Source: a virus (taxonomy: Duplodnaviria; Heunggongvirae; Uroviricota; Caudoviricetes). Taken from it: a DNA stretch of 56,119 bases. The translations under genes and the position numbers were made by a program. Every line of letters starts with the position of its first letter. The first letter of the stretch is position 1. Under the pieces are notes generated by a model. It made no database searches and was not told the DNA's origin. It saw nothing but the letters and a program-made list of their open reading frames with translations. Of this stretch, positions 1,562 to 48,435 are shown piece after piece. Where the stretch lies: IMG/VR virus record IMGVR_UViG_3300036801_000212, positions 64,001 to 120,119 of that record; one strand, 5' to 3'.

Positions 1562-1852
1562 TCAGCATTGATTCCTCGACTAAGCCTAACTTCGTACAGT
1601 TGTACAGAATTACGTACACTCGCCCACTTGTCTCTCGCGCGCGTATAAGTGGACGTTGTGTCCACTAAGTGTTTCCGCAGGTCAGAGACTGTTGATCATG
1701 TGCGAAAACGGTTGTTTCGACTTATGCGACGAGCGACATTCCGCACACGACATGTGCGACAAACGGGGTCTGGCGACCAGCACATATGCACTGGTCGCCA
1801 ACCGATGTTGATGTTCACCGTCTGTCGCACAACCGGCCGATTCCGCACAAGA

Positions 1853-2089
1853 TCAGACAGAGTGCAGGAAGGCACTTCGCCTAGCCACGACTCGAGCGGC
1901 GGCAATTACTTGCATGTCAGCATGATGTGCGGCTCGGGCTAGCATGCCGTCATCGTCACTAGTCCAGCTGTCCAGGTAGAGCTTGCTCGCTGCCTCTTGC
2001 TTGGTCAGCAGGGAGGCGAGCTCGGTGATTGCATTGTCTCGGGACTCTTCGGCAGCGTAGGCGGCACGGTAGTTGTACATCGTGGTCAT
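1853..2089 (-). CDS. hypothetical protein
   Basis: C-terminal 78 aa (MTTMYNYRAAY...) of the 1853..2266 ORF look protein-like; the upstream part overlaps the GATC-repeat region. Confidence 0.4.
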   Translation of the reverse strand: MTTMYNYRAAYAAEESRDNAITELASLLTKQEAASKLYLDSWTSDDDGMLARAAHHADMQVIAAARVVARRSAFLHSV

Positions 2090-2735
2090 TAGATGATCTC
2101 CTGTCCATTGCGTGATCAACAAGAGTTCAAGATCGAATGATCTTCTCTCCAGGTGATCACACAAGATCAAATGATCTTGACTTGCGTGATGGAAGATCAG
2201 CGATCTTGTGAGACCTGGTGATCTTCCTCCGGCCTGTGCCGCGCGGCGCACCCGAAACTTGATCACCCTGCGCCCGCTTGGCCTTCACCGCGCACGTCAC
2301 GCCGGCAGTCCGGTCGTGATCAAATCCTCGCGGGTGGTTCCTAGCGGCGGGTGGGGTCGGGATTGCGGCCAGCCATTGCCGGACCGGTAGCGACATCCAT
2401 TCAAGATCGTTGATCTTGTCCGGGGCTTTCCGGTGAAGTGATCTTGAGTCAAGCTGATCTTGACCCGGGACTCGGTGTCGAGCTCTTTCGCTTACAAGGT
2501 CTAATCTACCCGGCGCCAGACTTGGGACATACCGCCGAATGGGTGGTAGCTGAGAGTGATCAGTTGCTTCGGCTAGCTAACGAGATGGTTACGCCGGCTA
2601 ACGATATGATCGTTACCGAACCGTGATGTTGACCTTCTCAGGCAACCGTTACCGAACCGTGACTGATCAACTGAGAGTCCCCCCCACCTGTTCGTTAGGC
2701 TAACTAACAAAGGCAAGGGTTCATGATCTTGGTCA
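2090..2735. repeat. GATC-dense region with AAGATC-N3/4-GATCTT palindromes and a 16-bp direct repeat
   Basis: About 20 GATC counted by eye in ~645 bp. Palindromes at 2129-2144, 2162-2179, 2193-2207 and 2401-2418. CGTTACCGAACCGTGA at 2611 and 2647. Confidence 0.75.
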
Positions 2736-2823
2736 CCCCTACGCGCGGCCGGGTCCCCTTTTTGGTATTCGATTAGCCTCCGATGCCCATTTATATTTTT
2801 GCTAGCTACGTGCGCGAAGTTTT

Positions 2824-3300
2824 TTAGCCATGCTCTCTCAGATACTCAGCAGCACGTTCCATCCTCTCGGGATCATCATCGAAGTGTCCTAGCATTTTGT
2901 TGCAGCTGGAACACAGCAATTCCCTAATAATCCCCGTTTTGTGGCAGTGGTCCACCGCTAGTTTGATAGTGTTGCCGTTTTTCGCCACGGCTGTCTCAAG
3001 TCTTCTGCAGATGGCGCACACGCCGCCCTGTTTAGACAGCATCTCTTCGTACTGTCCACGGGTAAACTCCTTGCACTCGCCGCCGTAAGGGGCGTGCTCG
3101 GACGAGCAGTACGTCCGGGGTCGCCCCTGCTCGGTGTCCAGCGGGATGACGTTGCCGCACCAGCATGTCGTCGGCCTTGCGGTCTGTGCCTGTTCCCAGA
3201 GTTCGGTAACGCGTTGCCGAGTCAGTCCGAGTCGCTGACCGATGGCCTTGTAGTGTCAATCCTTCTTCACGCCACTTGACGATCTGCCGGGACCTCTCGG
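2824..3300 (-). pseudogene. frameshifted HTH / Zn-finger / endonuclease VII gene
   Basis: C-terminus CAIC...LAVDHCHKTGIIRELLCSSCNKMLG is Endo VII-like. The same frame is open upstream to ~3255 (AIGQRLGLTRQRV, CWCG...YCSSEH). IVKWREEGLTLQ joins it only after removing one base at ~3247. Confidence 0.6.
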
Positions 3301-3695
3301 GCAGCGTGCTTTCGGATGTATGCGGCCGCCTCGGTGAGAGTATCGGGGTTGTCGCTAGCGAAACCGAGACCTCGGTTGCATTTGGTGCACAAGAGTTTGC
3401 GAACTTTCCCCGTCGTATGGCAGTGATCGACACAGAGTTTCCCGCGCGGGGGTTCGGGGACCCCACAGATGGCGCAGTTTGCCCCCTGGGAGGCCCTGAG
3501 ATCGCCGTAGAGCGCACGGTTGGCCTTTGCCCGCCTCTGGCACTCAATGCAGAGGCGGCATCGCTTAGGGGCATCGTAGGGCTTAAGGCAACTCGAACAG
3601 CTGGTGCGCGGCTCGAGTTGCCGTCCGGACCGCTTGACGGGCTTTGCGTCTGTCGTATCTCGCACACACCCGAAGGCTACTAAGCCCCGCGCCAC
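3267..3695 (-). CDS. endonuclease VII family (homing) endonuclease
   Basis: CAICG...LCVDHCHTTGKVRKLLCTKCNRGLG...L.EAAAYI motif. Confidence 0.85.
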   Translation of the reverse strand: MARGLVAFGCVRDTTDAKPVKRSGRQLEPRTSCSSCLKPYDAPKRCRLCIECQRRAKANRALYGDLRASQGANCAICGVPEPPRGKLCVDHCHTTGKVRKLLCTKCNRGLGFASDNPDTLTEAAAYIRKHAAREVPADRQVA

Positions 3696-3738
3696 GATTG
3701 GTTAGTTTGAAAATTCCCGGCGCGTCGCGAGTGGCTTT

Positions 3739-5207: not shown

Positions 5208-7103
5208 GTGAAAGACGAAAACCCCGAGGTAATTGAGGCTACCCTCGATCAGTTGGAATTGTTCAAAAGGCTTAAAAGGAAAAGTGAACTTCTAGAGCGT
5301 GCGATTGCGTTGAAGTCGGCGGATAAACCTCGACCTTGGCATTCGAAGGCCCGCGAGAAACAATTAGAACCTCAAGGCGATTTCTCGGTATGGCTCGTAA
5401 TGGCGGGCAGAGGCTGGGGAAAGACGGAAGTCGGGGCGAACTGGCTCGCTGAACAGGCCGTGAAGAATCCCGATACTGAATGGGCCATCGTTGCTCCCAC
5501 TTGGCGGGATTGTAAGAAAACGTGCATCGAAGGCAAATCGGGACTTTTGAAGGCTTTCCTTCCGGGCGAGCTTGATTCATTGAACGCTTCCGACTTGACC
5601 GTGAGATTGAAGAACGGCTCCAAAATCTATGGGTATTCCGCTGATGGTTACGACAGATTACGTGGGTCGAACCTTTCCGGTGCATGGATAGACGAGGCCG
5701 CCGCGATGGGCTCCGTGGATGACATGTTCAGGGAGGCTTTGCTGCCTGCTTTGCGTATCGGCAAGAACCCTCGAGTTCTCATCACCACTACTCCTCGGCC
5801 GATTCAGTTCCTGAAGGAGCTAATCGCACGGGAGGACGGCTCGGTCTATGTAACAAAGGGTTCGACGTGGGAGAACGCGGAGAATCTATCCGAGAGCGCC
5901 TTGACGGAGTTGAGGGTTCGTTACGAGGACACTCGAATCGGCCGCCAGGAGCTTGAGGGCGAGCTTCTTGACGACATCGAAGGTGCTCTCTGGAATCATC
6001 AAACCTTGGAAGACACAAGGATACAGAAATCTGAACTTCCGCAGTTGTCGCGAATTGTTGTCGGCGTTGACCCAGCTGTTACTAGTGGTGACAAATCCGA
6101 CTTCACGGGAATTATCGTGGCCGGTCGCTGTCATGATGGTCATCTATACATTCTTGATGATTTAACGATGAAGGGCACTCCTCATCAGTGTATGGCCAAG
6201 GCCATTGGCGCTTACCACAAGTGGCACGCGGACAGAATTGTCGGCGAGGTCAATAACGGTGGGGACTACATCGAGTCTGTTCTGCGTTCGATTGATTCGA
6301 ATGTCGCGTATAAAACTGTCCGTGCGACAAGGGGCAAGTTGGTTCGTGCTGAACCTATCTCCGCACTGTGGGAGCAGGGTAGGGGTCATATTGTTGGGTA
6401 CCTTCCGAAGTTGGAAGACCAGATGGCCACTTATACGGCGGACGCCAAGAAGAGTCCCGATGAGCTCGATGCGTGCTTCATTGCGGGGACGCCGGTTCTG
6501 ACGTCTTCGGGCGAAGTTCCGATCGAGAAGGTAGTCCCTGGCGATCTGGTTTGGACCCGTGCTGGCTGGAAGCCTGTCCTTCGCAGTGAATGTACACGGC
6601 GTGATGCAACCGTGATGAGCGTCAAACTGTCGAACGGGAATATTTTAACGGGAACTCCAAGCCACCGGATATGGACAGGGAATGGTTGGACTCGTCTCGA
6701 TGATCTCGTTTGTGGTGATATCCTAGAAGGATGGACGACTACCCATCAAGTATCGAATTCCAAGGGTTCACCTAGCGTCTTGTGCCGTGCCCCGTCTGTA
6801 CCACTGAGTTCTGGCAGTCTAATTATCGCGCCAAGCCCGCGACGTGCAGCCTTAAGTGTAGTTGGGTTATTCGCCGAGCCCGCGAAGAAGGACGTCTACG
6901 ACCTGATGGTGGCGCAGCAGCATGAGTTTGTCGCCGCGGGCGCTGTAGTTCATAACTGCGTTTGGGCCTGTACTGAATTAAATATGGGCGCGTCGGCAGC
7001 CATTTGGCTGTCGGCGATTTCGTCTATGTGCGATAACCCTGACTGCGGTTTCGCTAACACAAAAGGTGCGGCTTTCTGTCTCAGATGTCGTGAGCCTCTG
7101 TAA
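5208..7103 (+). CDS. terL: terminase large subunit, intein-containing
   Basis: Walker A AGRGWGKT, Walker B WIDEAA, nuclease motifs VGVDPA and SPDELDA|CVWA; GGAGG RBS. Confidence 0.95.
   Translation: MKDENPEVIEATLDQLELFKRLKRKSELLERAIALKSADKPRPWHSKAREKQLEPQGDFSVWLVMAGRGWGKTEVGANWLAEQAVKNPDTEWAIVAPTWRDCKKTCIEGKSGLLKAFLPGELDSLNASDLTVRLKNGSKIYGYSADGYDRLRGSNLSGAWIDEAAAMGSVDDMFREALLPALRIGKNPRVLITTTPRPIQFLKELIAREDGSVYVTKGSTWENAENLSESALTELRVRYEDTRIGRQELEGELLDDIEGALWNHQTLEDTRIQKSELPQLSRIVVGVDPAVTSGDKSDFTGIIVAGRCHDGHLYILDDLTMKGTPHQCMAKAIGAYHKWHADRIVGEVNNGGDYIESVLRSIDSNVAYKTVRATRGKLVRAEPISALWEQGRGHIVGYLPKLEDQMATYTADAKKSPDELDACFIAGTPVLTSSGEVPIEKVVPGDLVWTRAGWKPVLRSECTRRDATVMSVKLSNGNILTGTPSHRIWTGNGWTRLDDLVCGDILEGWTTTHQVSNSKGSPSVLCRAPSVPLSSGSLIIAPSPRRAALSVVGLFAEPAKKDVYDLMVAQQHEFVAAGAVVHNCVWACTELNMGASAAIWLSAISSMCDNPDCGFANTKGAAFCLRCREPL
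6474..6956 (+). mobile_element. mini-intein in TerL (161 aa)
   Basis: Starts CFIAGTPV, block B TPSH, ends VYDLMV...VVHN followed by Cys+1; too short for a homing endonuclease. Confidence 0.9.
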
Positions 7104-39448: not shown

Positions 39449-40432
39449 ATGAAGATTCTGTATTCGCTGATGGCGATTCTTGCCGCGCTGGCAATGACTA
39501 CCGGCGTGGCTCAGGCTAACGGTCACGGTCCACACGGCCATGGCCATTCCATTTCGTGTACCGGTACCGCAGGTGGCACCTGTACCCCGACTCTTCCTAA
39601 CGGGCACATTCTCCCGCCGTGCACCATCACTACCGGCACCACGTGTTCAGACACTGTCGGCGGTTTCGGTGGCCGTGGCGGTTTGGGTGGGCGTTTCGGT
39701 GGCTACCCGGGACTTCCGATGGGATTCCCGCAACTGCTGAATGGCAACCTTCTCTCCCTCGAAGCTTTGGGTGTCGTCGGAGTCAACGCCAATATCGACG
39801 TGTGCGGCTACCCGTCGTTCCAGGATTTCGATGCCTTCGCTGGTCCGCACTATGGTGCCGGTTGGGGAATGGCTCGGGGTCGTTGGTTCCAGGCTCAGCA
39901 GGCCCAGCAGGAATGGCTGGCATTGCGTAATGCCGCCGGGTGTGGCACAGTGCTTAACAGTTTCAACCAGTTCAACGGATTCAACGAGTTCCCGGGGATG
40001 CTGAACGGCCAGAATTTCAACCTCCAGCAGTATGGTGGGGGTCTGGTGAATCTCTGCGCCTATTCGAACTTCAACTCTTTCGATGGCTACCTGGGTTCTC
40101 GCCTCGGTTCTCGCTGGGGTGGTCGTGGCGGTCTGCGTGGACGCTTCGGTAATCAGAATGCGTGGTCGAACAACTTCAACCAGTTACGCAACCAGGTTGG
40201 CTGTCCGGTAGTTGTTACTCCCGGCGCGTATCAGCCTCCCGTGATCCAGCCGCAGCCTGTGATTCAGCCTCAGCCTGTTGTGGAACCGCAGCCTGTGATT
40301 GTTCCTCAGCCCGCTCCGGCACCCGCGGTGACTCCCGCTCCTCCGGTTGGCCCGACCATCATCGAGGTTCCGGAAGGTCCGCCGAATACTGGGGATTCCG
40401 GTCTCGCGCCGGATGCTAGGTGGGTCGACTAG
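39449..40432 (+). CDS. secreted protein, candidate sortase substrate
   Basis: Signal peptide ending AQA, two Cys-bounded repeats, PQPV stalk and C-terminal VPEGPPNTG. Confidence 0.75.
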   Translation: MKILYSLMAILAALAMTTGVAQANGHGPHGHGHSISCTGTAGGTCTPTLPNGHILPPCTITTGTTCSDTVGGFGGRGGLGGRFGGYPGLPMGFPQLLNGNLLSLEALGVVGVNANIDVCGYPSFQDFDAFAGPHYGAGWGMARGRWFQAQQAQQEWLALRNAAGCGTVLNSFNQFNGFNEFPGMLNGQNFNLQQYGGGLVNLCAYSNFNSFDGYLGSRLGSRWGGRGGLRGRFGNQNAWSNNFNQLRNQVGCPVVVTPGAYQPPVIQPQPVIQPQPVVEPQPVIVPQPAPAPAVTPAPPVGPTIIEVPEGPPNTGDSGLAPDARWVD

Positions 40433-40434
40433 AG

Positions 40435-41055
40435 ATGTTGCGAGTCCTTGGACTCATGCTGGTGGGAATGCTGGTGTCTTGTGGCTCCGGCATTCCCACT
40501 GCCGACCCGGTGCTGACTCCCGCGGCGATGCCGAGTTCAGCACCGGCTGTGCCCGCTCTCTCCTCCCGGCGGGTTATTCCCGTGGCTATTCGGATTCCCT
40601 CGATCAAGGTCGATGGTCGACAGATCATGGCGCTTGGACTGAACGGTGATCATTCGCTTCAGGTGCCACCGCTGAAGAATCCATTGGTCGCAGGCTGGTA
40701 CACCGGAGCGCCAGTACCCGGGAACCCAGGAAGTGGAATCATGGCCGCGCACGTCGATGCTGGAGGGGTTAAAGGACTCTTCTATCGTCTCTCCGAGATG
40801 AAGCCGGGCGACCTCGTCTTCGTCGACCGCTCGGATGGCAAAACGGCTGAGTTTAAGACCGCGAGCGTGGATAAATATTGCAAGGACGCAGTCGGTTGCC
40901 CGGCGGGCGAGAAAGTGTTCCCTTCGAAGCTGTTCTATAGCAGCCAGCCTCAAGCGCAACTGCATCTCACGACTTGCGGCGGCAGATATGACGCGAAAGA
41001 TCGTAACTACCTGGAATCCATAGTCGTGATTTCAACTCTGGTAAGCATGAGCTGA
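40435..41055 (+). CDS. class F sortase (lipoprotein)
   Basis: LVSC lipobox; P..IRIPSI, VAGWY..AP.PG..G..IMAAHVD, LFYRL..MKPGD.V and LHLTTCGG motifs. Confidence 0.85.
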   Translation: MLRVLGLMLVGMLVSCGSGIPTADPVLTPAAMPSSAPAVPALSSRRVIPVAIRIPSIKVDGRQIMALGLNGDHSLQVPPLKNPLVAGWYTGAPVPGNPGSGIMAAHVDAGGVKGLFYRLSEMKPGDLVFVDRSDGKTAEFKTASVDKYCKDAVGCPAGEKVFPSKLFYSSQPQAQLHLTTCGGRYDAKDRNYLESIVVISTLVSMS

Positions 41056-41064
41056 GAGGCTTCG

Positions 41065-41964
41065 ATGACTTCTGGCCTCGATTACTACAGTGGCGCCACG
41101 ATCAACCCTGCGGACATCGCGGCGGCCAATTATTCGTTCGTCTGCCGCTACGTAGACAACCCTGTTTATGGCCTCGGCGCGAAAGACATCACCCAGGTCG
41201 AGTACTACGAGTTGATCCGTGCTGGACTGAGTGTCTATCTCGTCTTCGAACACACCGCACAGGACTACGCTGCCGGGTTCCTGGGCGGTGTGGTAAATGC
41301 GCAAAGAGCGTTAGCTGGCGCGCAGTGGCTCGATTACTCTGGGCCGATATTCATGTCAGTTGACACGCATCTCGACGCGCAGCAAATTCCCGTAGCCATC
41401 AGCTATCTTGACGGAGCTCAACACATCCTCGCGACCAAGCTGGGTGTCTATGGCTTCAGTGAACTGATCCAGGCATGCCAGGCCCAGAATGTCGGGGCTT
41501 ACTTTTGGCAGGCCGGCGATAAACCAGCGCCGAATTCCGGCGTGCATCTATGGCAGGAAAACAACAACACGGTAACCATCGATGGCACCCCGTGCGACGT
41601 CGACTTGATGTTACTTCCGATGCCGCCTCCGGAGGAAGATATGACACCCGATCAATCGGCGATGCTCACGGCGCTCTACCAGTATGTATCCGGCAGTGCC
41701 GAGGTCGTTCCGCAGGGAACATCATGGCCGGGATGGCAGACGTGGCCGGGAGGATCAGACCAGAGTCTCTCAGCGACAGACTATCTCCGCCAAGCCAATG
41801 TGGACATCACTCTCCTGAAAGCCGAGATCGCAGCTATCAAAGCCACTATGGATTCACTTTCTGTGGGTCAAGAAGGTAGCTTCGGTAATCTCTCGCCGGA
41901 GGACATTTCCCGAATCGCCGCGGCGGTGATGGAGTCAATGGCAAGTAAACTCGGTGGCTCCTGA
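41065..41964 (+). CDS. endolysin, DUF1906 / GH25-like glycoside hydrolase
   Basis: GLDY...FVCRYV...VYLVFE...PIFMSVD...GVYG...YFWQ...HLWQ...CDVD pattern. Confidence 0.85.
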   Translation: MTSGLDYYSGATINPADIAAANYSFVCRYVDNPVYGLGAKDITQVEYYELIRAGLSVYLVFEHTAQDYAAGFLGGVVNAQRALAGAQWLDYSGPIFMSVDTHLDAQQIPVAISYLDGAQHILATKLGVYGFSELIQACQAQNVGAYFWQAGDKPAPNSGVHLWQENNNTVTIDGTPCDVDLMLLPMPPPEEDMTPDQSAMLTALYQYVSGSAEVVPQGTSWPGWQTWPGGSDQSLSATDYLRQANVDITLLKAEIAAIKATMDSLSVGQEGSFGNLSPEDISRIAAAVMESMASKLGGS

Positions 41965-42171
41965 ATGTGTCGCTACGTCTGGTTCGCATGGCTCGGTGTC
42001 GGCATATACCTTGAGTGGCGCGGTTTCAACCACGATTGCCATCGTACGTTTTCCCGGGAAGTGCACCACTGGACCCATGTGAAGCGCTGTCAATGGTCGC
42101 CGCTTCTATGGGTCGCACTAGGGATCTGGTTCTCTTACCATCTTCGCGTACTCAAAGATTTGGAAGCTTGA
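41965..42171 (+). CDS. small membrane protein
   Basis: Two Trp-rich hydrophobic stretches. Confidence 0.5.
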   Translation: MCRYVWFAWLGVGIYLEWRGFNHDCHRTFSREVHHWTHVKRCQWSPLLWVALGIWFSYHLRVLKDLEA

Positions 42172-42464
42172 TGTTCACCTGGGTTTTCTGGAAGGCCACA
42201 CTATCTGCGGCGATTACCGCTTTCGCATACACGCTTATTGGCGTCTTGGGTACGGGACCGTCGGGGCTTGACTTCTTCTCGATCGATTGGAAGCACGCGC
42301 TGGGCGTCTCGCTTGTGGTCGCGCTGGTTGCGATTTTGCACGCCATTGTGCCGGTCGCACCGCAGGTGGCAGCAGTGCGACGTCTCCGCACTTCGCCGAC
42401 CGTTCCGATGGCCCCCGTGGAGGCAGTCCCTCATCGGGGTGAACACGAGGCGCCGGATTCGTAA
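42171..42464 (+). CDS. holin (r1t-like)
   Basis: FWKA...AITAFAYTLIGVLG...IDW..ALGVSLV pattern; after the endolysin. Confidence 0.75.
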   Translation: MFTWVFWKATLSAAITAFAYTLIGVLGTGPSGLDFFSIDWKHALGVSLVVALVAILHAIVPVAPQVAAVRRLRTSPTVPMAPVEAVPHRGEHEAPDS

Positions 42465-42667: not shown

Positions 42668-42712
42668 TGGCCTAGCTTCTCTTAACTGAGAGGCTAGGCC
42701 ATCTTTTTTTTT
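42668..42712 (+). terminator. intrinsic terminator ending the late operon
   Basis: TGGCCTAGC/GCTAGGCCA stem followed by a 9-T run. Confidence 0.85.
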
Positions 42713-42734
42713 GCCCAAAATCAGCGCAAGAAAG

Positions 42735-42765
42735 GACCCCCGCCACGTAGCCTGTGACGGGGGTC
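42735..42765 (-). terminator. terminator hairpin downstream of the ncRNA pair
   Basis: GACCCCCGTCAC/GTGGCGGGGGTC 12-bp stem followed by CTTTCTT. Confidence 0.7.
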
Positions 42766-42799
42766 AGCAAGTTAGACCGCGAAGAACGCTGCCACAGTT

Positions 42800-42912
42800 G
42801 ACGACAGATCAACTTGAGGGTCGGTGTGCGATGCCGTTACGCCACGGGGGTATGGATTTTGGCACCCCCGCCGGGGGTCGAACCCGGGTCCCACCAATCG
42901 GTGCCTGTCGCC
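42800..42912 (-). ncRNA. circularly permuted tRNA-like RNA (YrlA-like), unit B
   Basis: 5'->3': GGCGACAG, TGGTG, T arm CCGGG-TTCGACC-CCCGG, CGGGGGT-GCCAAAATCCAT-ACCCCCG looped acceptor stem, D arm GCG-TAACGGCAT-CGC, CACCG, CTGTCGTC. All stems pair. Confidence 0.7.
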
Positions 42913-42949
42913 CGAAGATGCAGCGAATGCAGTTGTCAGTAACTTGGAG

Positions 42950-43062
42950 CGTGCGAGAATAACCTTGGGGTCGCAGCCTGGCGCCTCTGCCAATTGGGCT
43001 ATCCCGGCATGTGGTGCCGGGAGTAGGGTTCGAACCTACACTGAACAGGCTAGCGGTGACAC
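42950..43062 (-). ncRNA. circularly permuted tRNA-like RNA (YrlA-like), unit A
   Basis: 5'->3': CGCTAGCCTG, T arm GTAGG-TTCGAAC-CCTAC, TCCCGGC-ACCACAT-GCCGGGA looped acceptor stem, D arm GCC-CAATTGGCAGA-GGC, CAGGCTGCG. Outer boundaries are approximate. Confidence 0.65.
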
Positions 43063-43114
43063 GGAAAAGAATCTTAATCTTGCGCTCCTGCGCACCACTA
43101 GCCTAGCACGATTT

Positions 43115-43855
43115 CTAGTCGAACAGGTACCCAAGAATCCGTGCACCGACTACGGGCTCCACAGCTTCCACGCGGTTCGCCTGCTCCCGTGCCGCATGAA
43201 CCGCGGCACGCAGCGTGGAAATGCGACGAAGCAACGTCTCTCGACGAGATACTGGTACCGCACCTGAGAACTTGATTCGCGTCCACGTCCCAGCGGTGAC
43301 CTGCTCGGCAACCACCTGGGCCTGCGCCTGATGCTTATCGGTGGCCGCCGCCAGGGTGATTACCTTGTGCTGCTGCACCTGCCGAGAGGTCTTGACTGGA
43401 GTGGATTTATACACGCCGCGAGACTCCGCAAGCTCCCAAATCGTGCTCGGGCTGTGCGTGGGGATGCGGGTCACGAACGCCTGCAGATCATCCAACTGGC
43501 GGTCCAGCCACAGAATGTACGGGACCGGCGCACTCTCAACCAGTGTCTGCTCTCCGACTATGATGTCAGCCATCGCGGTGCCAGAGGAGTTGGTGAAGTC
43601 TCGAGCAGCGGTGACGTCGAAGAGGCTCGCCAGAGTTTCCCGGGTGGCCTCGACCATCTCCTCAACGGTGGCCTGCACCCGAGCTCCCTCAGATGGAAGC
43701 TGCTCTCCTCCGTCGAAGGCCGGCTCGTAATCGCCGGTCAGCCCTTCCAGAAGCGCGGGCTTGTCGAGCGCGTGGTAAGTGTCGGTCAACTTCCGTGCCG
43801 CTGCCTTGCGAACGTCAGCCTCGATCGCTACGACCTGGCCAAGATACTTCGTCAT
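43115..43855 (-). CDS. conserved uncharacterised protein (DUF7873-like)
   Basis: GEQLP.E..RVQ, LFDVTA.RD..N, PVPY.L.L..QL.DL and KFSGA.P motifs recalled from a widespread actinobacterial family. Confidence 0.7.
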   Translation of the reverse strand: MTKYLGQVVAIEADVRKAAARKLTDTYHALDKPALLEGLTGDYEPAFDGGEQLPSEGARVQATVEEMVEATRETLASLFDVTAARDFTNSSGTAMADIIVGEQTLVESAPVPYILWLDRQLDDLQAFVTRIPTHSPSTIWELAESRGVYKSTPVKTSRQVQQHKVITLAAATDKHQAQAQVVAEQVTAGTWTRIKFSGAVPVSRRETLLRRISTLRAAVHAAREQANRVEAVEPVVGARILGYLFD

Positions 43856-43960: not shown

Positions 43961-44176
43961 CTAGCAGTCGGCTACCACTATGCAGTTGTCCCAATCCAAA
44001 TCAGCGACATGCTCAGCACCCCACTCGCGCCGGACGAGTTCCTTCGCCCACTCAAAATAATCTTCTCCCCACGGGTGATCGAAGAAGAACTCTTCATTGT
44101 CGTCACCCTTAATGGTGTGGCCACAGCATCCCGTTGCGCAGCCAAACCCTGAGTGGTATACAACGATCTTAGCCAT
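43961..44176 (-). CDS. small acidic protein with CxxGCCGH motif
   Basis: Overlaps the upstream gene; YHSGFGCATGCCGH. Confidence 0.6.
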   Translation of the reverse strand: MAKIVVYHSGFGCATGCCGHTIKGDDNEEFFFDHPWGEDYFEWAKELVRREWGAEHVADLDWDNCIVVADC

Positions 44177-44744
44177 TCGTCTCCCGGATGATCGTGGTGA
44201 GCTGATTAATACTCACCGGCCGCCAGTCCCACATGTCAACACCTACGTTAATCTGGCGATCCTTCACTTTCCACGCATCCTGTACATGACCGTGGATCAA
44301 CCAAAGTCCAGTGTCCTTCAGTCGGTAGGTCGTGTAACGCTCATCCTCCGTGTGATCTCCCCCGTAGGGGAAGTGACTTAAGAGAACATCCTGACCGTCT
44401 ATTCGACGTCGTGCATAAGCCTGTACTGACTCCCAGACTTCAAGCCACGTACGTTGGTGTCTGTGTGAATCTTTATGTCCGGGCCATACGTCATCATGAT
44501 TACCGGTGATCAAATGCTTGTGGCCGTTGAGTCGGGAAACTCTCTCGAGGATTCCCGCTTCCGAACCCATCCCGACATCCCCGAGATGCCAGACTTGATC
44601 TCCCGCGCGGACGATCTTGTTCCACTCTTGGATCAGATGCTCGTCGTGTTCTTCGACTGTCTCAAAAGGTCTCCAGCCTTTACCTTCGGCGGCCATAGCT
44701 TTGTGGCCGAAGTGGGAATCGGCTGTGAACCAGATTTCAGTCAC
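44169..44744 (-). CDS. calcineurin-like metallophosphoesterase
   Basis: FTADSHFGH, WHLGDV, ITGNHD, LSHFP and IHGHVQ motifs. Confidence 0.9.
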   Translation of the reverse strand: MTEIWFTADSHFGHKAMAAEGKGWRPFETVEEHDEHLIQEWNKIVRAGDQVWHLGDVGMGSEAGILERVSRLNGHKHLITGNHDDVWPGHKDSHRHQRTWLEVWESVQAYARRRIDGQDVLLSHFPYGGDHTEDERYTTYRLKDTGLWLIHGHVQDAWKVKDRQINVGVDMWDWRPVSINQLTTIIRETNG

Positions 44745-45446
44745 TCAAACGTCAACTTTCCTCCGACACACATATAGTCGATCGTGCAGTCCAGCCCATT
44801 GCGGGATGTCCACCGATTCTATCTCTTCGAAGAGGGATTCAGTGCTGCAGCTATCGCAAGTTTCTTGACCTTCGTCATGCCAGCAGTTGTCACTCAATCC
44901 CAGAAGTGAATGCATCTTGTCGTCTCCGGTGCATCCGCCATTACCTTCGCCGATATAAATTATCGTATCGCCGGAGTAGAGTTCCACAACTTCATGCGTC
45001 CAGTCCTCGGAATAGCAGGGCCAACAGAGGAGTAGCGTACGATTTGGCGAACCGATAACCACGGTGTGATCACCAGTCAAGACCTCGGTGAAAGGTTCCG
45101 AAAGCGACCAACTGTCATCCCCGGGAGTCTTGTCGAACGCGAGCACATCAAGTCCGCGCTGGCGAAGAAGCGAAGCCCAATAACCCGCACCGGCACCGAT
45201 CTCAATCAGGCCAGTTGGGGAGTAGCGAATGATGGCATCCAAGGCTTTGTCATTCGGAATGGCCCAAGACCATGTCCGACGTTTTTCGTGCTGATGCTCA
45301 CCGTAATCTCGACATTCGATGCAGTATTCCCACGGCTGTCGTATATCTCCGCATAGACTCGGCATCGCGGAACCGTGACTCATCTGATGGTTGAGCATGC
45401 GTTCGTACTCGTCCAGATATGGGTTGTCTATTTGCTCAGTCAGCAC
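44745..45446 (-). CDS. class I SAM-dependent methyltransferase-like protein
   Basis: LIEIGAGAGYWA...VLAFD and LLLCWP motifs. Confidence 0.75.
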   Translation of the reverse strand: MLTEQIDNPYLDEYERMLNHQMSHGSAMPSLCGDIRQPWEYCIECRDYGEHQHEKRRTWSWAIPNDKALDAIIRYSPTGLIEIGAGAGYWASLLRQRGLDVLAFDKTPGDDSWSLSEPFTEVLTGDHTVVIGSPNRTLLLCWPCYSEDWTHEVVELYSGDTIIYIGEGNGGCTGDDKMHSLLGLSDNCWHDEGQETCDSCSTESLFEEIESVDIPQWAGLHDRLYVCRRKVDV

Positions 45447-45516
45447 TCCAGTTCAGCCTTCCGAATGTCGATCTCCGAGAAAATCTCGGACCACAGGTGC
45501 TCGAGGTCGACGTTAC

Positions 45517-46608
45517 TCATGATCTGACATCTCGCTCGAACGACGCGACGCCGCCAAGCCAGTCGCGGCGCTGTCGAACGACGCTGGTGCCCAGGGCCAC
45601 GCCGATGAACACCACGCCGAGGGAACCGACCAGCCACTCCGGCAGGTGCACGCCGTACAGCTTCAACAGCATCACCACGCCCAGGAGCAGAATGGCCCAA
45701 TGGGCGCCGTGTTCGAGGTACCGGTACTTGGCGAGGGTGCCGGTGCGGACGAGATGCACGGTCATGGACCGGACCCACATGGCGCCGGCTCCGAGACCGG
45801 CCATGATGACCAGGACGGCGGTAGTGATGGCGAACGCCCCGATCACCCCGTCGAACGAGAACGAGGCGTCCAGCACCTCCAGTCGGATGAACATGATGCC
45901 GGCAGCAGCACCGATCAGTACTTGCACTCTCTGCGTTTCACCCTCGTCGGGGTTGTCAAACGCGGCGCCGAACATGTCGAGGCCGACGTGCAGCAGCACC
46001 CCGATGATCGCGGCAACGAACACGGGAGTGCGCTGTCCGTCATCGACGGTGAAGAACGCGACCACCGCGACGGCGATCATGACGAAGATGGTGATGTTGT
46101 CGAATCGGCCCAGCGGGGCCAGACGCGACTCCAGCCAGCCGATCCAGTGGACGTCTTTCTCGGCGTCAAGGAAGTAGCTGACTCCGATCATGAGCAGGAA
46201 CGTGCCGCCGAACGCGCCGATCATCGGTCCGGCCTGCACCAGGTGCTGTGCGTACACGGCTGGCTGATGGACGGCCAGGTTGACGACGTCCCCGAAGGAC
46301 AGCCCGGCGGCGAGTTGCACGATGAAGATGGGCAGCGCGAACCGGACCACGAAGACGGCGACCAAGATGCCGGCGGTCATGAACGCCTTCTGCCAGACCG
46401 GGGACATGCGGGTGACCAGTTTCGAGTTGACGACAGCGTTGTCGAAGCTGAACGTCACCTCAAGGAGGGTCAGGATGACCGCGGTGAGTAGCGTCGCTGG
46501 GCCGGCCGCGACGGCGACAGCGGCCCAGGCGAAGACGGTGACGGCAGCGGAAGGGCCGTAGATGCCCCACAGGTTTACCCGGCTCCGCGCTGGGGCAGAA
46601 GCAGTCAC
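45517..46608 (-). CDS. TerC-like integral membrane protein (DUF475 type)
   Basis: LEVTFSFDNAVVN, LEVLDASFSFDGVIGAFAIT and YLEHGAHWAI motifs; GTG start overlaps the vWA stop. Confidence 0.85.
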   Translation of the reverse strand: MTASAPARSRVNLWGIYGPSAAVTVFAWAAVAVAAGPATLLTAVILTLLEVTFSFDNAVVNSKLVTRMSPVWQKAFMTAGILVAVFVVRFALPIFIVQLAAGLSFGDVVNLAVHQPAVYAQHLVQAGPMIGAFGGTFLLMIGVSYFLDAEKDVHWIGWLESRLAPLGRFDNITIFVMIAVAVVAFFTVDDGQRTPVFVAAIIGVLLHVGLDMFGAAFDNPDEGETQRVQVLIGAAAGIMFIRLEVLDASFSFDGVIGAFAITTAVLVIMAGLGAGAMWVRSMTVHLVRTGTLAKYRYLEHGAHWAILLLGVVMLLKLYGVHLPEWLVGSLGVVFIGVALGTSVVRQRRDWLGGVASFERDVRS

Positions 46609-47378
46609 GACAGCACGCCGGCCTTCGCCGCGGCGGCGACCCAGGAGTCCCACTCGTCGGCCATGGCGTCGGCGAACACCAGATCGGACACCGATGCGGG
46701 GTCGGCGAAGAACTGTGCGTTGACGTTGTCGAGTAGCCGGTTGTCGGGGCTCATGTTGTCAAGCTCATTGAGATAGGGGACGTCGCGGATGGCCAGGAAC
46801 TTCAGGAACACCGGGTAGCTCGCCAGCTTGCACACGATGTCGGTCGTCGCCGGCTGGGAGTTCGGGTTGCCGTCGGTCACAACCGCGCAGAAGATCGGCT
46901 CGGTGGTGGTCTCCGCCAGCTCCCGGACCGCGATGAGAGCCGATGCCAAATCGGTGGTGCCCATTCGCTCCGGCCGCCAAATCCGCTGGTTGACGACGCC
47001 GCGGTAGTTGTCGACGGTCACATCGACGGCGGGATGGACGCACGAGTCAAACGGGATCACGGGGACGGTGCCGTCCAGGTCGATCTGCAAGGCGAACCCC
47101 AACACCCGCTCCACGAGGGTCTGGACCTTGCCGTTGGCGTAATCGGCGCGCATCGACCCGGAGTGGTCGAGCGCCAACACAGCCTGCGCGCGAATCCCGG
47201 CCAGGCCCCGCTTGGACAGGGCGATACCGGCTTTGTCGGCGCGCTTGGCCAGGTCGATGTGTCCGGCGTCGCGGACCTTCGACAGATTGATCGCTGAGTT
47301 TCCGGTGGAATCCTTGATCAGGTTGACGGTCCGCGACGGACGGAAAACGTCACCGCCTTTACGATTGAACAAGCGCAT
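46605..47378 (-). CDS. vWA-domain protein (Ter-associated)
   Basis: MIDAS motif LALDHSGSM, GTTD, VVTDG; LDNVNAQF. Confidence 0.85.
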   Translation of the reverse strand: MRLFNRKGGDVFRPSRTVNLIKDSTGNSAINLSKVRDAGHIDLAKRADKAGIALSKRGLAGIRAQAVLALDHSGSMRADYANGKVQTLVERVLGFALQIDLDGTVPVIPFDSCVHPAVDVTVDNYRGVVNQRIWRPERMGTTDLASALIAVRELAETTTEPIFCAVVTDGNPNSQPATTDIVCKLASYPVFLKFLAIRDVPYLNELDNMSPDNRLLDNVNAQFFADPASVSDLVFADAMADEWDSWVAAAAKAGVLS

Positions 47379-47406
47379 GCCAGTTGCCTCTCGAATAGGG
47401 ATGGGA

Positions 47407-47988
47407 TCAGCCGATGTGGTACGCGGTTACGAGCCCCTGGAGTTCACTGGTGAAGCCATCACCGATGGCCCGGAAATTCCACGCCTGCCCGCGGCGGTAC
47501 AGCTTGCCGAACACCAGCGAGTTGACCCCGGCGTTGGTGTCCTCGGTGAGGTCGTAGCGGGCCAGCTCGGTATTGGTGGTCTCGTCGACAACGCGGACGA
47601 AAGCGTCCTCCACCAGCCCGAAGTTCTGGCCACCTCTCGCCTTGGCCTCGTGGATCGTCACCGCCACCACCAGTTCGGTAACGTCGGCCGGTACTCGTGC
47701 CAGGTCGATCAGGATTTGCTCGTCGTCGCCGTCGCCACCGCCGGTGAGGTTGTCGCCCTGATGCACGATCACGTCGCCCGGGGCCGCCATGTGGTTGTAG
47801 AAGACGAACCATTCGGGGCTCGCACACGCGCCCGAGGAGTTGAGTCCGATGATGGAAGCGTCGAGGTCGTAGGCGGGTCCGTCGGTACGACGGACGTCCC
47901 AACCCAATCCGATGCGGACCTTGGTGAGAGCGCCACCGGCTTCCTTGGACAGGTCCACCTTGCCGCCCTTGGACAGGTTGATCGCCAT
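47407..47988 (-). CDS. terD: TerD-family protein
   Basis: INLSKGGKVDL, GLGWD, DLDAS, FVFYN, GDNLTG.GDGDDEQI and WNFRAIG motifs; GAAGGG RBS before ATG 47988. Confidence 0.9.
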   Translation of the reverse strand: MAINLSKGGKVDLSKEAGGALTKVRIGLGWDVRRTDGPAYDLDASIIGLNSSGACASPEWFVFYNHMAAPGDVIVHQGDNLTGGGDGDDEQILIDLARVPADVTELVVAVTIHEAKARGGQNFGLVEDAFVRVVDETTNTELARYDLTEDTNAGVNSLVFGKLYRRGQAWNFRAIGDGFTSELQGLVTAYHIG

Positions 47989-48435
47989 GAGATTTCCCTT
48001 CGTGGGTTTACCGGTGATGACCACGCCTGTGGGGGCGGTGGCCAATGTCATGCCGATGTCACACAACCACGGGTGCAGCGGTGTGTCGGCCAGGTTGGAA
48101 AGTTCGTGGGTGTCGCGGTGGAGCCCAATGTCTGAGGTGCGGCAGATTCCGGTCGCTACCACAGAAATGCCGTTCCACTGGCCGACCTGCATCCAGTCAG
48201 TAGGGTCGACGGCCATGATGACCGCACCCCAATGGTTGGCCAGAGCGGTGGGAATGTAGGTGTCGCGGCCAGCCATCAAGTCGGTGGAGCGACCACCGGC
48301 CGTGCTGACGAACTGGCGGAGCAGGTACCAGCCTCGGTTGGTGACGATGAGCCGGTGAGCGGGAAGGTCGCTGGCGGTGAGTCCGAGGTCGGCCCGACTG
48401 CCGGGTGTCCAGTGCGTGACCACGTGTCGAAGCAT
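47989..48435 (-). CDS. in-frame N-terminal extension of TerD (possible fusion)
   Basis: 149 open codons in frame with terD, starting at an ATG. Confidence 0.35.

What the first reader, a model, noticed from the sequence alone, without database searches (positions are those of the whole stretch)
42800..43062. Tandem pair of circularly permuted tRNA-like RNAs (YrlA architecture) with no Ro60 gene in view
Seen: in both units the T arm and 3' acceptor strand (with CCA) come before the 5' acceptor strand and D arm. The acceptor stem is closed by a 7- or 12-nt loop, and the 5' and 3' ends pair in place of the anticodon arm. Stems differ in sequence yet all pair, and the units share CACCG and GACCC(T)CAAG. 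A terminator follows. Established: bacterial YrlA Y RNAs have this topology and partner Ro60/Rsr. No TROVE gene is in the window. Inference: decoys or hijackers of host Ro60/PNPase or of anticodon nucleases, or permuted tRNA precursors.
Basis: partly seen in the sequence, partly recalled or inferred. Interest (0 to 1): 0.8.

Follow-up and report, generated by a model that had tools for sequence, protein, structure and literature searches.

The report
Two-headed tRNA-mimic RNA beside DUF7873
The two back-to-front tRNA look-alikes are real, but they are two domains of one roughly 380-base folded RNA that follows an unstudied protein gene (DUF7873) in phages and in many soil bacteria, so it probably works with that protein, not with Ro60.

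Summary
Observation confirmed. On the minus strand, 43039-42983 and 42887-42828 each read T arm, 3' acceptor strand plus CCA, short loop, 5' acceptor strand, D arm. Each unit is closed by a stem where a tRNA has its anticodon arm. A strict pattern for this layout hits only these two sites in the whole 120-kb phage genome (0.065 expected per shuffle).

The units are not separate ~110-nt genes. They are the two tRNA-like domains of one ~380-nt RNA (about 43105-42726) directly 3' of a DUF7873 gene (43855-43115). The same gene-plus-RNA pair, with the same ~145-nt spacing, follows DUF7873 in 72 of 80 metagenomic phage loci, 73 of 78 bacterial chromosomal loci and 10 of 11 GenBank phages. tRNA tertiary signatures that played no part in selecting the loci are nearly invariant.

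No Rfam family reaches threshold. The window's genome has no Ro60 gene, nor do 9 of 10 other phages. Among bacterial carriers, 38 of 96 in the Streptomyces-family sample and 5 of 10 others have none. DUF7873 has no detected fold relative and models as a homodimer.

Best reading, with binding inferred and not shown: a Ro60-independent RNA-protein particle of the Y-RNA kind. No transcript data exist. This scan has noted the same module before on other DNA, in at least 127 genomes; I reached it independently and then tested it.

The parts
43115..43855 (-). DUF7873 gene (246 aa), the constant upstream neighbour of the RNA
   Evidence: Pfam PF25283, E 1.4e-74. AF2 model pLDDT 92.9. Homodimer model ipSAE 0.75 against a best control of 0.00.
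42726..43105 (-). Whole structured RNA, about 380 nt; ends are inferred from family conservation and have not been mapped
   Evidence: Family alignment of 39-47 loci.
43073..43093 (-). 5' leader: hairpin GCGC-AGGA-GCGC and the family motif GAGCGCAAGAUUAAG
   Evidence: Aligned with GAGCRCAAG... in relatives.
43046..43055 (-). Closing stem of unit A, 5' strand: CGC(U)AGCCUG
   Evidence: Pairs with 42980-42972. The closing stem recurs in register across the family.
43023..43039 (-). Unit A T arm (5 bp, loop UUCGAAC)
43002..43022 (-). Unit A capped acceptor stem: 7 bp, discriminator A, CCA, 7-nt loop
42983..42999 (-). Unit A D arm (tRNA-Leu-like), preceded by U8 A9; A14, G18 G19 and A15:U48 are present
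   Evidence: 91% identity over 34 nt to phage tRNA-Leu genes..
42972..42980 (-). Closing stem of unit A, 3' strand: CAGGCUGCG
42911..42971 (-). Linker with repeated CAAG-type words and the motif UUAUUCUCGCACGCUCCAAG (family consensus UUAUYGCUC); holds GCUGC (42924-42920), which pairs with GCAGC at 42792-42788
42892..42910 (-). Unit B closing stems, 5' strands: CGACAG (42910-42905) and UUGGUG (42897-42892). GGCGAC at 42912-42907 is a one-mismatch GNCGAA.
42871..42887 (-). Unit B T arm (5 bp, loop UUCGACC)
42845..42870 (-). Unit B capped acceptor stem: 7 bp, discriminator G, CCA, 12-nt loop
42828..42842 (-). Unit B D arm, preceded by U8 G9; A14 and GG are present; A15 faces C48, which is non-standard
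42802..42826 (-). Unit B closing stems, 3' strands: CACCGA (42826-42821) and CUGUCG (42807-42802), flanking the internal-loop motif CCCUCAAGUUGAU
42735..42765 (-). Terminal 12-bp hairpin with loop AGGCUAC; it is conserved in the family (loop GGNUAY) and is followed here by a U-rich tail (42734-42713)

Best explanation
The flagged pair is the core of one ~380-nt non-coding RNA encoded directly after a DUF7873 gene. RNA and gene form a two-part module that is conserved in phages of several bacterial phyla and, as a single chromosomal copy, in about two thirds of sampled Streptomyces-family species.

The RNA displays two L-shaped tRNA mimics. Each has a T arm, a D arm, a capped 7-bp acceptor stem with a discriminator base and often CCA, and a long helix in place of the anticodon arm.

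Working model, inferred and not shown:
1. The RNA is made with or just after the DUF7873 message.
2. A DUF7873 homodimer binds the non-tRNA parts: the internal loops and repeated CAAG-type words beside each head, and the terminal hairpin.
3. The two heads engage enzymes that recognise the tRNA elbow and acceptor end (RNase P, the CCA-adding enzyme, modification enzymes). These enzymes recognise M. smegmatis and Salmonella YrlA in this way.
4. The particle would then act like a Ro60/Y-RNA particle, as an adaptor or decoy in tRNA or RNA quality control, but without needing Ro60.

In a phage the module would serve tRNA upkeep during infection.
For: SHOWN:
1. Specificity: only two strict pattern hits in the 120-kb genome, against 0.065 per shuffle.
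2. Linkage to DUF7873: units lie directly downstream on the same strand in 10 of 11 GenBank phages, whose hosts are Gordonia, Arthrobacter, Rhodococcus, Pseudanabaena, Rhizobium, Vibrio, Klebsiella and Ralstonia. The same holds for 72 of 80 IMG/VR loci, with only 3 minus-strand hits anywhere in them, and for 73 of 78 bacterial loci, 58 of them with both units, spaced 137-172 nt. The window's spacing is 152 nt.
3. tRNA fold, at positions not used to pick the loci: U8 in 105/105 and 104/105; A14 in 103/105 for each unit; GG in the D loop in 104 and 103; pair 15:48 is A:U or G:C in 99/105 and 104/105, with 16 G:C swaps in unit 2. D stems covary.
4. Closing stems exceed swapped-partner controls in 200 of 200 trials.
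5. Re-permuted in a script, 44 of 47 unit-1 copies and 45 of 47 unit-2 copies are called tRNAs by ARAGORN. None is called in native order.
6. CCA sits at positions 74-76 in 24/47 and 21/47 copies. The discriminator is A in 36/47 of unit 1 and U in 35/47 of unit 2.
7. Ro60 independence: there is no TROVE gene in this genome, in 9 of 10 other carrier phages, in 5 of 10 bacterial carriers, or in 38 of 96 DUF7873-positive genomes of the Streptomyces family.
8. In the two genomes checked that have both systems, separate YrlA-like RNAs sit beside the TROVE gene: Rhizobium phage RHph_Y65 and Streptacidiphilus rugosus.
9. DUF7873 homodimer model: score 0.75, best of 3 controls 0.00. That mark was reached by 20 of 30 proteins solved as pairs of one chain and by 1 of 23 solved as single chains. 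The runs agree in at least 98% of contacts and the partner's pLDDT is at least 89.

FROM THE LITERATURE: M. smegmatis YrlA has a 7-bp acceptor stem, is cut by RNase P and gains CCA in vivo; Salmonella YrlA is modified by the tRNA enzymes DusA and TruB (PMC4201824).
Against: - There is no transcript, RNA-end, binding or processing datum for any member.
- DUF7873 is mildly acidic (pI 6.0; family median 6.1) and has no recognised RNA-binding domain or fold relative. Synteny alone does not prove binding.
- The RNA could be a cis-acting 3' element of the DUF7873 message.
- The window copy lacks the family's best-conserved internal-loop words. It has AUCUUCGGG / UCAACUGUG where most members have AUCGA / UUAAACG. 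Unit B has A15 opposite C48.
- Links to Ro60 remain. A one-mismatch Ro-type motif (GGCGAC) sits where YrlA has GNCGAA. TROVE and DUF7873 co-occur slightly more often than chance in the Streptomyces family (odds ratio 2.1, p 0.04, not corrected for phylogeny). The two genes are neighbours in one species.
- An earlier check in this scan reported that the gene-RNA pairing was detected much less often among far relatives of the gene. I tested only relatives of about 30% identity or more.
Confidence: 0.55

Rival explanations
1. The RNA is a cis-acting 3' element of the DUF7873 message. The tRNA-like heads serve as RNase P / 3'-end processing and stabilising signals (tRNA 'punctuation'), and the RNA has no function as a free particle.
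For: - The RNA always lies immediately 3' of the gene on the same strand.
- No sigma-70-type promoter was found between gene and RNA in the window.
- 7-bp acceptor stems followed by CCA are good RNase P determinants (PMC4201824).
Against: - About 380 nt with two complete tRNA elbows goes far beyond what a cutting signal needs.
- Several sequence motifs outside the heads, and a fixed ~145-nt spacing between them, are conserved across phyla.
- The consensus promoter scan does not cover actinobacterial promoter types.
Confidence: 0.15
2. The units are split tRNA-like molecules. RNase P and 3' trimming open each capped acceptor stem. This leaves nicked heads with true 5'-P and CCA-3' ends that are aminoacylated; unit 1 would be charged by LeuRS, which does not read the anticodon. 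The charged heads would feed a tRNA-dependent enzyme or sense charging status.
For: - CCA directly follows the discriminator in about half of the copies, against an expected 1 in 64.
- The discriminator is A in 36 of 47 unit-1 copies.
- The unit-1 D arm matches tRNA-Leu genes.
- M. smegmatis YrlA is cut by RNase P and gains CCA in vivo.
- That A73 and tertiary features, not the anticodon, define E. coli tRNA-Leu identity is recalled from memory and was not checked here.
Against: - About half of the copies lack an encoded CCA at 74-76.
- Many unit-2 loops carry a 20-36-nt insertion before the 5' strand.
- No processing or charging data exist.
- Chen et al. saw no such cleavage for Salmonella YrlA.
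Confidence: 0.12
3. It is a Ro60-dependent Y RNA (a divergent YrlA) that the phage uses to capture the host's Ro60/Rsr and PNPase.
For: - The topology matches YrlA, and the YrlA model aligns unit B over all 114 positions.
- GGCGAC sits at the position of the GNCGAA Ro motif.
- The family's conserved linker word GAUCGAA resembles that motif.
- TROVE is common in the likely host group, in 81 of 151 Streptomyces-family genomes, and is weakly associated with DUF7873.
- The Rfam threshold is also missed by RNAs that do sit beside TROVE genes, which score 34-38 bits.
Against: - The exact motif is absent from the RNA strand.
- Scores of 21 and 14.7 bits are far below 69.
- No TROVE gene in this genome or in 9 of 10 other carrier phages.
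- 38 of 96 carriers in the Streptomyces-family sample, and 5 of 10 other bacterial carriers, have no detectable TROVE gene.
- In the two genomes checked that have both systems, separate YrlA-like RNAs lie beside TROVE.
- The invariant neighbour is DUF7873, not TROVE.
Confidence: 0.08

Closest known systems
YrlA, the tRNA-like bacterial and mycobacteriophage Y RNA bound by Ro60/Rsr (Rfam RF02553; Chen et al. 2014, PMC4201824)
   Same: - Same permuted order: T arm, loop-capped acceptor stem, D arm.
- The 5' and 3' flanks form a long helix in place of the anticodon arm.
- Same tRNA tertiary signature, including 15:48 covariation.
- Y RNAs also often occur as two RNAs in tandem.
- M. smegmatis YrlA likewise has a 7-bp acceptor stem.
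   Different: - Two tRNA-like heads sit in one ~380-nt RNA at a fixed ~145-nt spacing.
- The constant neighbour is DUF7873, not a TROVE gene.
- There is no exact GNCGAA motif.
- Scores fall far below the Rfam threshold.
- The RNA has its own conserved motifs: UUAUYGCUC, AUCGA / UUAAACG, and a terminal GGNUAY hairpin.
- It is present in many genomes that lack Ro60.
Circularly permuted tRNA genes (Cyanidioschyzon merolae and some archaea; recalled from memory, with reviews listed)
   Same: The 3' half (T arm, 3' acceptor strand) is encoded before the 5' half (5' acceptor strand, D arm).
   Different: Those genes mature through a circular intermediate into ordinary decoding tRNAs with an anticodon loop. 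Here no anticodon loop exists, and the flanks continue into long conserved helices.
Two-piece (permuted) tmRNA
   Same: T arm and CCA end lie upstream of the 5' acceptor strand. Maturation at the acceptor end is by RNase P and 3' trimming.
   Different: - Rfam tmRNA_permuted scores 8.7 bits against a threshold of 47.
- There is no G3:U70 pair, no tag reading frame and no pseudoknot region.
- ARAGORN finds no tmRNA.

Membership tests
YrlA / Ro60-bound Y RNA (RF02553) | tRNA-like module in the order T arm, capped acceptor stem, D arm, closed by pairing of the flanks | tested here: met
YrlA / Ro60-bound Y RNA (RF02553) | Reaches the Rfam gathering score (69 bits) | tested here: not met
   Unit B scores 21.0 bits and unit A 14.7 bits. 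Caveat: RNAs that do lie beside TROVE genes in RHph_Y65 and S. rugosus also score only 34-38 bits, so this test discriminates weakly.
YrlA / Ro60-bound Y RNA (RF02553) | Encoded within about 4 kb of a Ro60 (TROVE) gene, on the same strand | tested here: not met
   No TROVE match in the whole 120-kb record, which is estimated 88% complete.
YrlA / Ro60-bound Y RNA (RF02553) | GNCGAAN0-1G Ro-binding motif near the 5' end | tested here: inconclusive
   There is no exact match on the RNA strand between 42720 and 43115. The one-mismatch GGCGAC at 42912-42907 is placed by the model at the motif's position.
YrlA / Ro60-bound Y RNA (RF02553) | Physical binding to Ro60/Rsr | not testable with these tools
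   Needs a pull-down or gel shift.
DUF7873-associated double tRNA-like RNA (unnamed; absent from Rfam 15) | Starts within about 60-130 nt after the stop codon of a DUF7873 gene, on the same strand | tested here: met
   The gene ends at 43115 and the unit A T arm starts at 43039.
DUF7873-associated double tRNA-like RNA (unnamed; absent from Rfam 15) | Two permuted tRNA-like heads 137-172 nt apart | tested here: met
   152 nt in the window.
DUF7873-associated double tRNA-like RNA (unnamed; absent from Rfam 15) | Terminal hairpin with a GGNUAY loop, and CAAG-type words beside each head | tested here: met
   Hairpin 42765-42735 with loop AGGCUAC. The motif searches used were loose.
DUF7873-associated double tRNA-like RNA (unnamed; absent from Rfam 15) | Internal loop AUCGA / UUAAACG in the long stem of head 2 | tested here: not met
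   The window has AUCUUCGGG / UCAACUGUG at that place. The family frequencies are 53/58 and 49/58 in bacteria. The window copy is a divergent member.
Functional tRNA gene (ordinary or permuted) | Anticodon stem with a 7-nt anticodon loop | tested here: not met
   ARAGORN finds none in the window. The Rfam tRNA model gives 15.5 bits against a threshold of 29, on a different register. The closing stems continue into long helices without a loop.

The most novel reading that the evidence does not exclude
DUF7873 and this RNA form a previously undescribed, widespread ribonucleoprotein. A symmetric protein dimer would hold a two-headed tRNA mimic. [quoted passage not shown] The particle would act in tRNA or RNA surveillance as a Ro60-independent counterpart of the Ro/Y-RNA particle, in Streptomyces-type bacteria, Chloroflexota, cyanobacteria and myxobacteria, and phages would have borrowed it into their tRNA gene clusters.
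Probability: 0.35. Interest if true: 0.85.

Novelty: new variant of a known kind. Interest (0 to 1): 0.72.

Why it matters
- **A missing RNA family.** If the reading holds, a large structured RNA family with an obligate protein partner has been overlooked in some of the best-sequenced bacteria. It is in 96 of 151 sampled Streptomyces-family species and in many cultured phages, where it sits unannotated inside tRNA gene arrays.
- **A wider view of tRNA mimicry.** It would show that Y-RNA-style tRNA mimicry is not tied to Ro60.
- **A first function for DUF7873.** The family currently has none.
- **A testable link to phage tRNA biology.** It offers a handle on how phages with large tRNA sets manage or protect tRNA during infection.
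- **It is tractable.** Carrier phages such as Phendrix, GodonK and Ziko on Gordonia terrae 3612, and carrier bacteria such as Kitasatospora setae, are culturable.

Tried and rejected
**Searches for relatives that found nothing useful**
- Megablast of the region against GenBank phages gave no match.
- A single-protein search of IMG/VR found no close relative.
- A DNA pattern built from the two units found only chance matches in coding DNA.

**Folding**
- Minimum-energy folds of the single units are not better than shuffles. In the 431-nt fold, an 11-bp alternative helix (43103-43093 with 43058-43048) displaces the unit A closing stem. This helix is not seen in relatives.
- A global consensus fold of the whole RNA gave only partial long-range helices. 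I did not settle the pairing of the leader, linker and tail.

**DUF7873 fold and function**
- PDB sequence search, Foldseek on PDB, VIA-align wide (best Z 7.5, helical bundles only), the ESM Atlas shape search and the Atlas feature search named no relative other than DUF7873 itself.

**Expression**
- No RNA holder was listed for the window in either run search, so no reads were laid.
- Ten Streptomyces-family carriers that I named are not model strains, and I had no run search left to use on them.

**Literature**
- No paper in the library mentions DUF7873.
- Searches for a Ro60-independent tRNA-like phage RNA found nothing specific.

**Readings rejected**
- Phage attP with a tRNA 3' fragment: it would not explain the 5' acceptor strand and D arm that follow.
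- tmRNA: see Closest known systems.
Full report
**1. What is in the sequence**

Read on the minus strand, the flagged range holds two units with the same layout.

Unit A:
- T arm 43039-43023 (GUAGG-UUCGAAC-CCUAC).
- Seven-pair acceptor stem closed by the loop ACCACAU (43022-43002). CCA follows discriminator A.
- U8 A9, then a D arm (42999-42983).
- Closing stem: CGC(U)AGCCUG (43055-43046) pairs with CAGGCUGCG (42980-42972).

Unit B:
- T arm 42887-42871.
- Seven-pair acceptor stem with a 12-nt loop (42870-42845). CCA follows discriminator G.
- D arm 42842-42828.
- Nested closing stems: UUGGUG/CACCGA and CGACAG/CUGUCG.

ARAGORN and Rfam at gathering thresholds report nothing in the window. Single-unit folds are not better than shuffles, as is usual for tRNA-sized RNAs.

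A strict layout scan finds exactly these two sites on both strands of the whole 120,119-base virus record. It requires a 5/5 T stem, a UUCRANN loop, a 7/7 acceptor hairpin and a D stem. Local shuffles give 0.065 hits per genome.

**2. Surroundings**

The window is the right-hand 56 kb of an IMG/VR phage record. That record carries two ordinary tRNA genes elsewhere.

- The plus-strand lysis genes (sortase, endolysin, holin) end at about 42567.
- A minus-strand block runs towards them: TerD, a TerF-type vWA protein, a TerC/DUF475 membrane protein, a methyltransferase-like protein, a phosphoesterase, and last a 246-aa DUF7873 protein at 43855-43115.
- The RNA starts some 20-75 nt after the DUF7873 stop codon.

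**3. The RNA travels with DUF7873**

tblastn found DUF7873 in 72 GenBank phages. I fetched ten of them: Gordonia Phendrix and Ziko, Arthrobacter Racecar, Rhodococcus NiceHouse, Pseudanabaena Pam2, Microcoleus My-WqHQDG, Rhizobium RHph_Y65, Vibrio D520, Klebsiella KpLz-2_45 and Ralstonia RSL1.

In each, an unannotated gap of 170-1160 nt follows the gene. In all but My-WqHQDG that gap holds one or two units of the same layout, with entirely different stem sequences. In several of these phages the module sits inside a tRNA gene array.

| Set of DUF7873 loci | Loci with at least one strict unit downstream, same strand | Loci with at least two | Hits elsewhere |
|---|---|---|---|
| IMG/VR phage loci | 72 of 80 | 44 | 9 on the plus strand, 3 on the minus strand |
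| Bacterial species genomes | 73 of 78 usable | 58 | 0 on the plus strand, 2 on the minus strand |

- The bacterial loci come from Streptomyces, Nonomuraea, Streptosporangium, Kitasatospora, Nocardia, Herpetosiphon, Ktedonobacter, the cyanobacteria Dapis and Okeania, and Sorangium.
- Spacing between the two units is 137-172 nt, mostly 143-147. The window has 152.
- In a Planotetraspora chromosome the module stands alone among unrelated genes.
- DUF7873 is a single-copy gene in 96 of 151 sampled genomes of the Streptomyces family, and is in none of 14 model organisms.

**4. The heads are tRNA-like in depth**

The loci were chosen by T-stem and acceptor-stem pairing, so covariation in those two stems is partly circular. 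The independent evidence is as follows.

- D stems covary.
- In 105 non-identical two-unit loci:

| Feature | Unit 1 | Unit 2 |
|---|---|---|
| U8 | 105 of 105 | 104 of 105 |
| A14 | 103 of 105 | 103 of 105 |
| GG in the D loop | 104 of 105 | 103 of 105 |
| Levitt pair 15:48 is A:U or G:C | 99 of 105 | 104 of 105 (88 A:U, 16 G:C) |

- The single A:C exception in unit 2 appears to be the window's unit B, which has A15 opposite C48.
- Closing stems in the tRNA register (ending 4-6 nt before the T stem, starting 0-2 nt after the D arm) are longer than with swapped partners. The mean is 5.26 against 4.20 for unit 1 and 5.09 against 4.26 for unit 2. No control out of 200 reached the observed value.
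- Re-permuted in a script with a synthetic anticodon loop, 44 of 47 unit-1 copies and 45 of 47 unit-2 copies are called tRNAs by ARAGORN. None is called in native order. A control with a swapped stem strand still passed 37 times, so this test reflects mainly the acceptor/D/T geometry.
- CCA follows the discriminator in 24/47 and 21/47 copies. The discriminator is A in 36/47 of unit 1 and U in 35/47 of unit 2.
- The D arm of the window's unit A is 91% identical over 34 nt to tRNA-Leu genes of Streptomyces phages.

**5. One RNA, not two**

Family alignments show conserved sequence outside the heads:
- a leader with a small hairpin and GAGCRCAAG;
- a linker motif UUAUYGCUC;
- a long stem around head 2 with an internal loop AUCGA / UUAAACG;
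- a terminal hairpin with loop GGNUAY.

In most relatives it is followed by YCGCC, not by a run of U. Here a U-rich tail follows, so it may also terminate transcription.

The window copy keeps most of these features. In place of AUCGA / UUAAACG it has AUCUUCGGG / UCAACUGUG, so it is a divergent member. I did not resolve the pairing of leader, linker and tail.

**6. Relation to YrlA and Ro60**

The literature defines YrlA by a tRNA-like module in this order, by a GNCGAAN0-1G motif near the 5' end, and by a position within about 4 kb of Ro60 on the same strand. M. smegmatis YrlA has a 7-bp acceptor stem, is cut by RNase P and gains CCA (PMC4201824).

Against membership:
- The Rfam model gives 21.0 bits for unit B (full length) and 14.7 bits for unit A, against a threshold of 69.
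- No Rfam family reaches threshold in the gaps of six other loci.
- The exact motif is absent from the RNA strand.
- TROVE is absent from this genome, from 9 of 10 other carrier phages and from 5 of 10 bacterial carriers.
- In the Streptomyces-family sample the counts are 58 with both genes, 38 with DUF7873 only, 23 with TROVE only and 32 with neither.

For a link:
- The model places GGCGAC (42912-42907) at the motif's position.
- The family word GAUCGAA resembles the motif.
- The odds ratio in that sample is 2.1 (p 0.04, uncorrected for phylogeny).

Where both systems occur together, they have separate RNAs:
- In RHph_Y65, two YrlA-like RNAs (34 and 37 bits) carrying UUGCGAA/UUGCGAU lie upstream of the TROVE gene. 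The DUF7873-adjacent RNA (36 bits) has CAAG-type words instead.
- In Streptacidiphilus rugosus, a YrlA-like RNA (38.5 bits) precedes the TROVE gene, and the DUF7873 module follows 1.7 kb downstream on the same strand.

The two RNA classes are therefore related in design but separate. Ro60 cannot be a general requirement. The Rfam threshold alone is a weak discriminator, since RNAs beside TROVE genes miss it too.

**7. The protein**

- DUF7873 folds confidently (pLDDT 92.9, pTM 0.78) into long helices packed on a beta sheet.
- No fold or sequence relative was found.
- The best-conserved stretch is ATDKHPAQ.
- The family is mildly acidic.
- Two copies are modelled as a symmetric, extensive dimer. 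The score is 0.75 and the best of 3 controls 0.00. That mark was reached by 20 of 30 proteins solved as pairs of one chain and by 1 of 23 solved as single chains. The runs agree in at least 98% of contacts and the partner's pLDDT is at least 89.
- A dimer facing a two-headed RNA is an attractive match, but it is an inference.

**8. Mechanism and odds**

- Best reading (0.55): a DUF7873-RNA particle that uses tRNA mimicry to engage tRNA-end and elbow-recognising enzymes, and works like a Ro/Y-RNA particle without Ro60.
- Shown: the RNA's conservation, its fold signatures, and its linkage to the gene.
- Inferred: binding, processing and role.
- Rivals: a cis-acting 3' processing or stability element (0.15); split heads that become aminoacylated (0.12); a Ro60-dependent Y RNA (0.08).
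- A decoding permuted tRNA and an anticodon-nuclease decoy are rejected, because there is no anticodon loop.

**9. Novelty**

The RNA is absent from Rfam 15. DUF7873 is absent from the searchable literature. A catalogue of 10,006 phage RNA candidates does not describe it. I could not read Burroughs and Aravind 2016.

This scan has flagged the same module before in at least 127 other genomes. I reached the DUF7873 link independently before reading those notes, and my counts agree with them. The transcript and binding data that an earlier check found missing are still missing.

Noticed in passing
window 44169-48435, minus strand: A Ter-type block lies upstream of DUF7873: TerD (47407-48435), TerF-like vWA protein (46605-47378), TerC/DUF475 membrane protein (45517-46653), a weak methyltransferase-like protein (44745-45446) and a calcineurin-like phosphoesterase (44169-44744). 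In other phages DUF7873 sits among tRNA genes instead, so this context is specific to this phage.
   Followed up: partly
window 40420-42464, plus strand: A sortase-domain gene (40420-41055) lies next to the endolysin (41065-41964) and holin (42015-42464) in the lysis cassette.
   Followed up: no
window 42668-42701: A 14-bp hairpin followed by a run of T ends the plus-strand lysis genes. It faces the end of the minus-strand RNA, so the two transcription units converge within about 30 nt.
   Followed up: no
window 43093-43103 with 43048-43058, minus strand: An 11-bp alternative helix (GGCUAGUGGUG with CACCGCUAGCC) overlaps the 5' strand of unit A's closing stem and wins in the minimum-energy fold of the long region. 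It is not seen in relatives. It may be chance, or a local switch.
   Followed up: partly
L008 3209-3737 (Gordonia phage Phendrix, MN096369.1): The Rfam tmRNA model matches at 89 bits in a stretch of the tRNA array where the GenBank record annotates nothing.
   Followed up: no
L008 10421-10478 (Phendrix), between tRNA-Val and tRNA-Thr: A further T arm plus acceptor-type hairpin passes the strict scan away from DUF7873. It has no clear D arm, and its nature is unknown.
   Followed up: no
L205 (Streptacidiphilus rugosus, G075:C4:4558500-4565600): A YrlA-like RNA (1951-2061, 38.5 bits), a TROVE gene (ORF 1812-3734), two small ORFs and the DUF7873 gene (5451-6185) with its RNA all lie on one strand within 5 kb. 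This is the only case seen of the two systems as neighbours.
   Followed up: partly
Streptomyces-family genomes G056, G096, G141, G158: DUF7873 and a TROVE gene lie 68-101 kb apart on the same contig in four genomes. This suggests shared chromosomal neighbourhood, not an operon.
   Followed up: no
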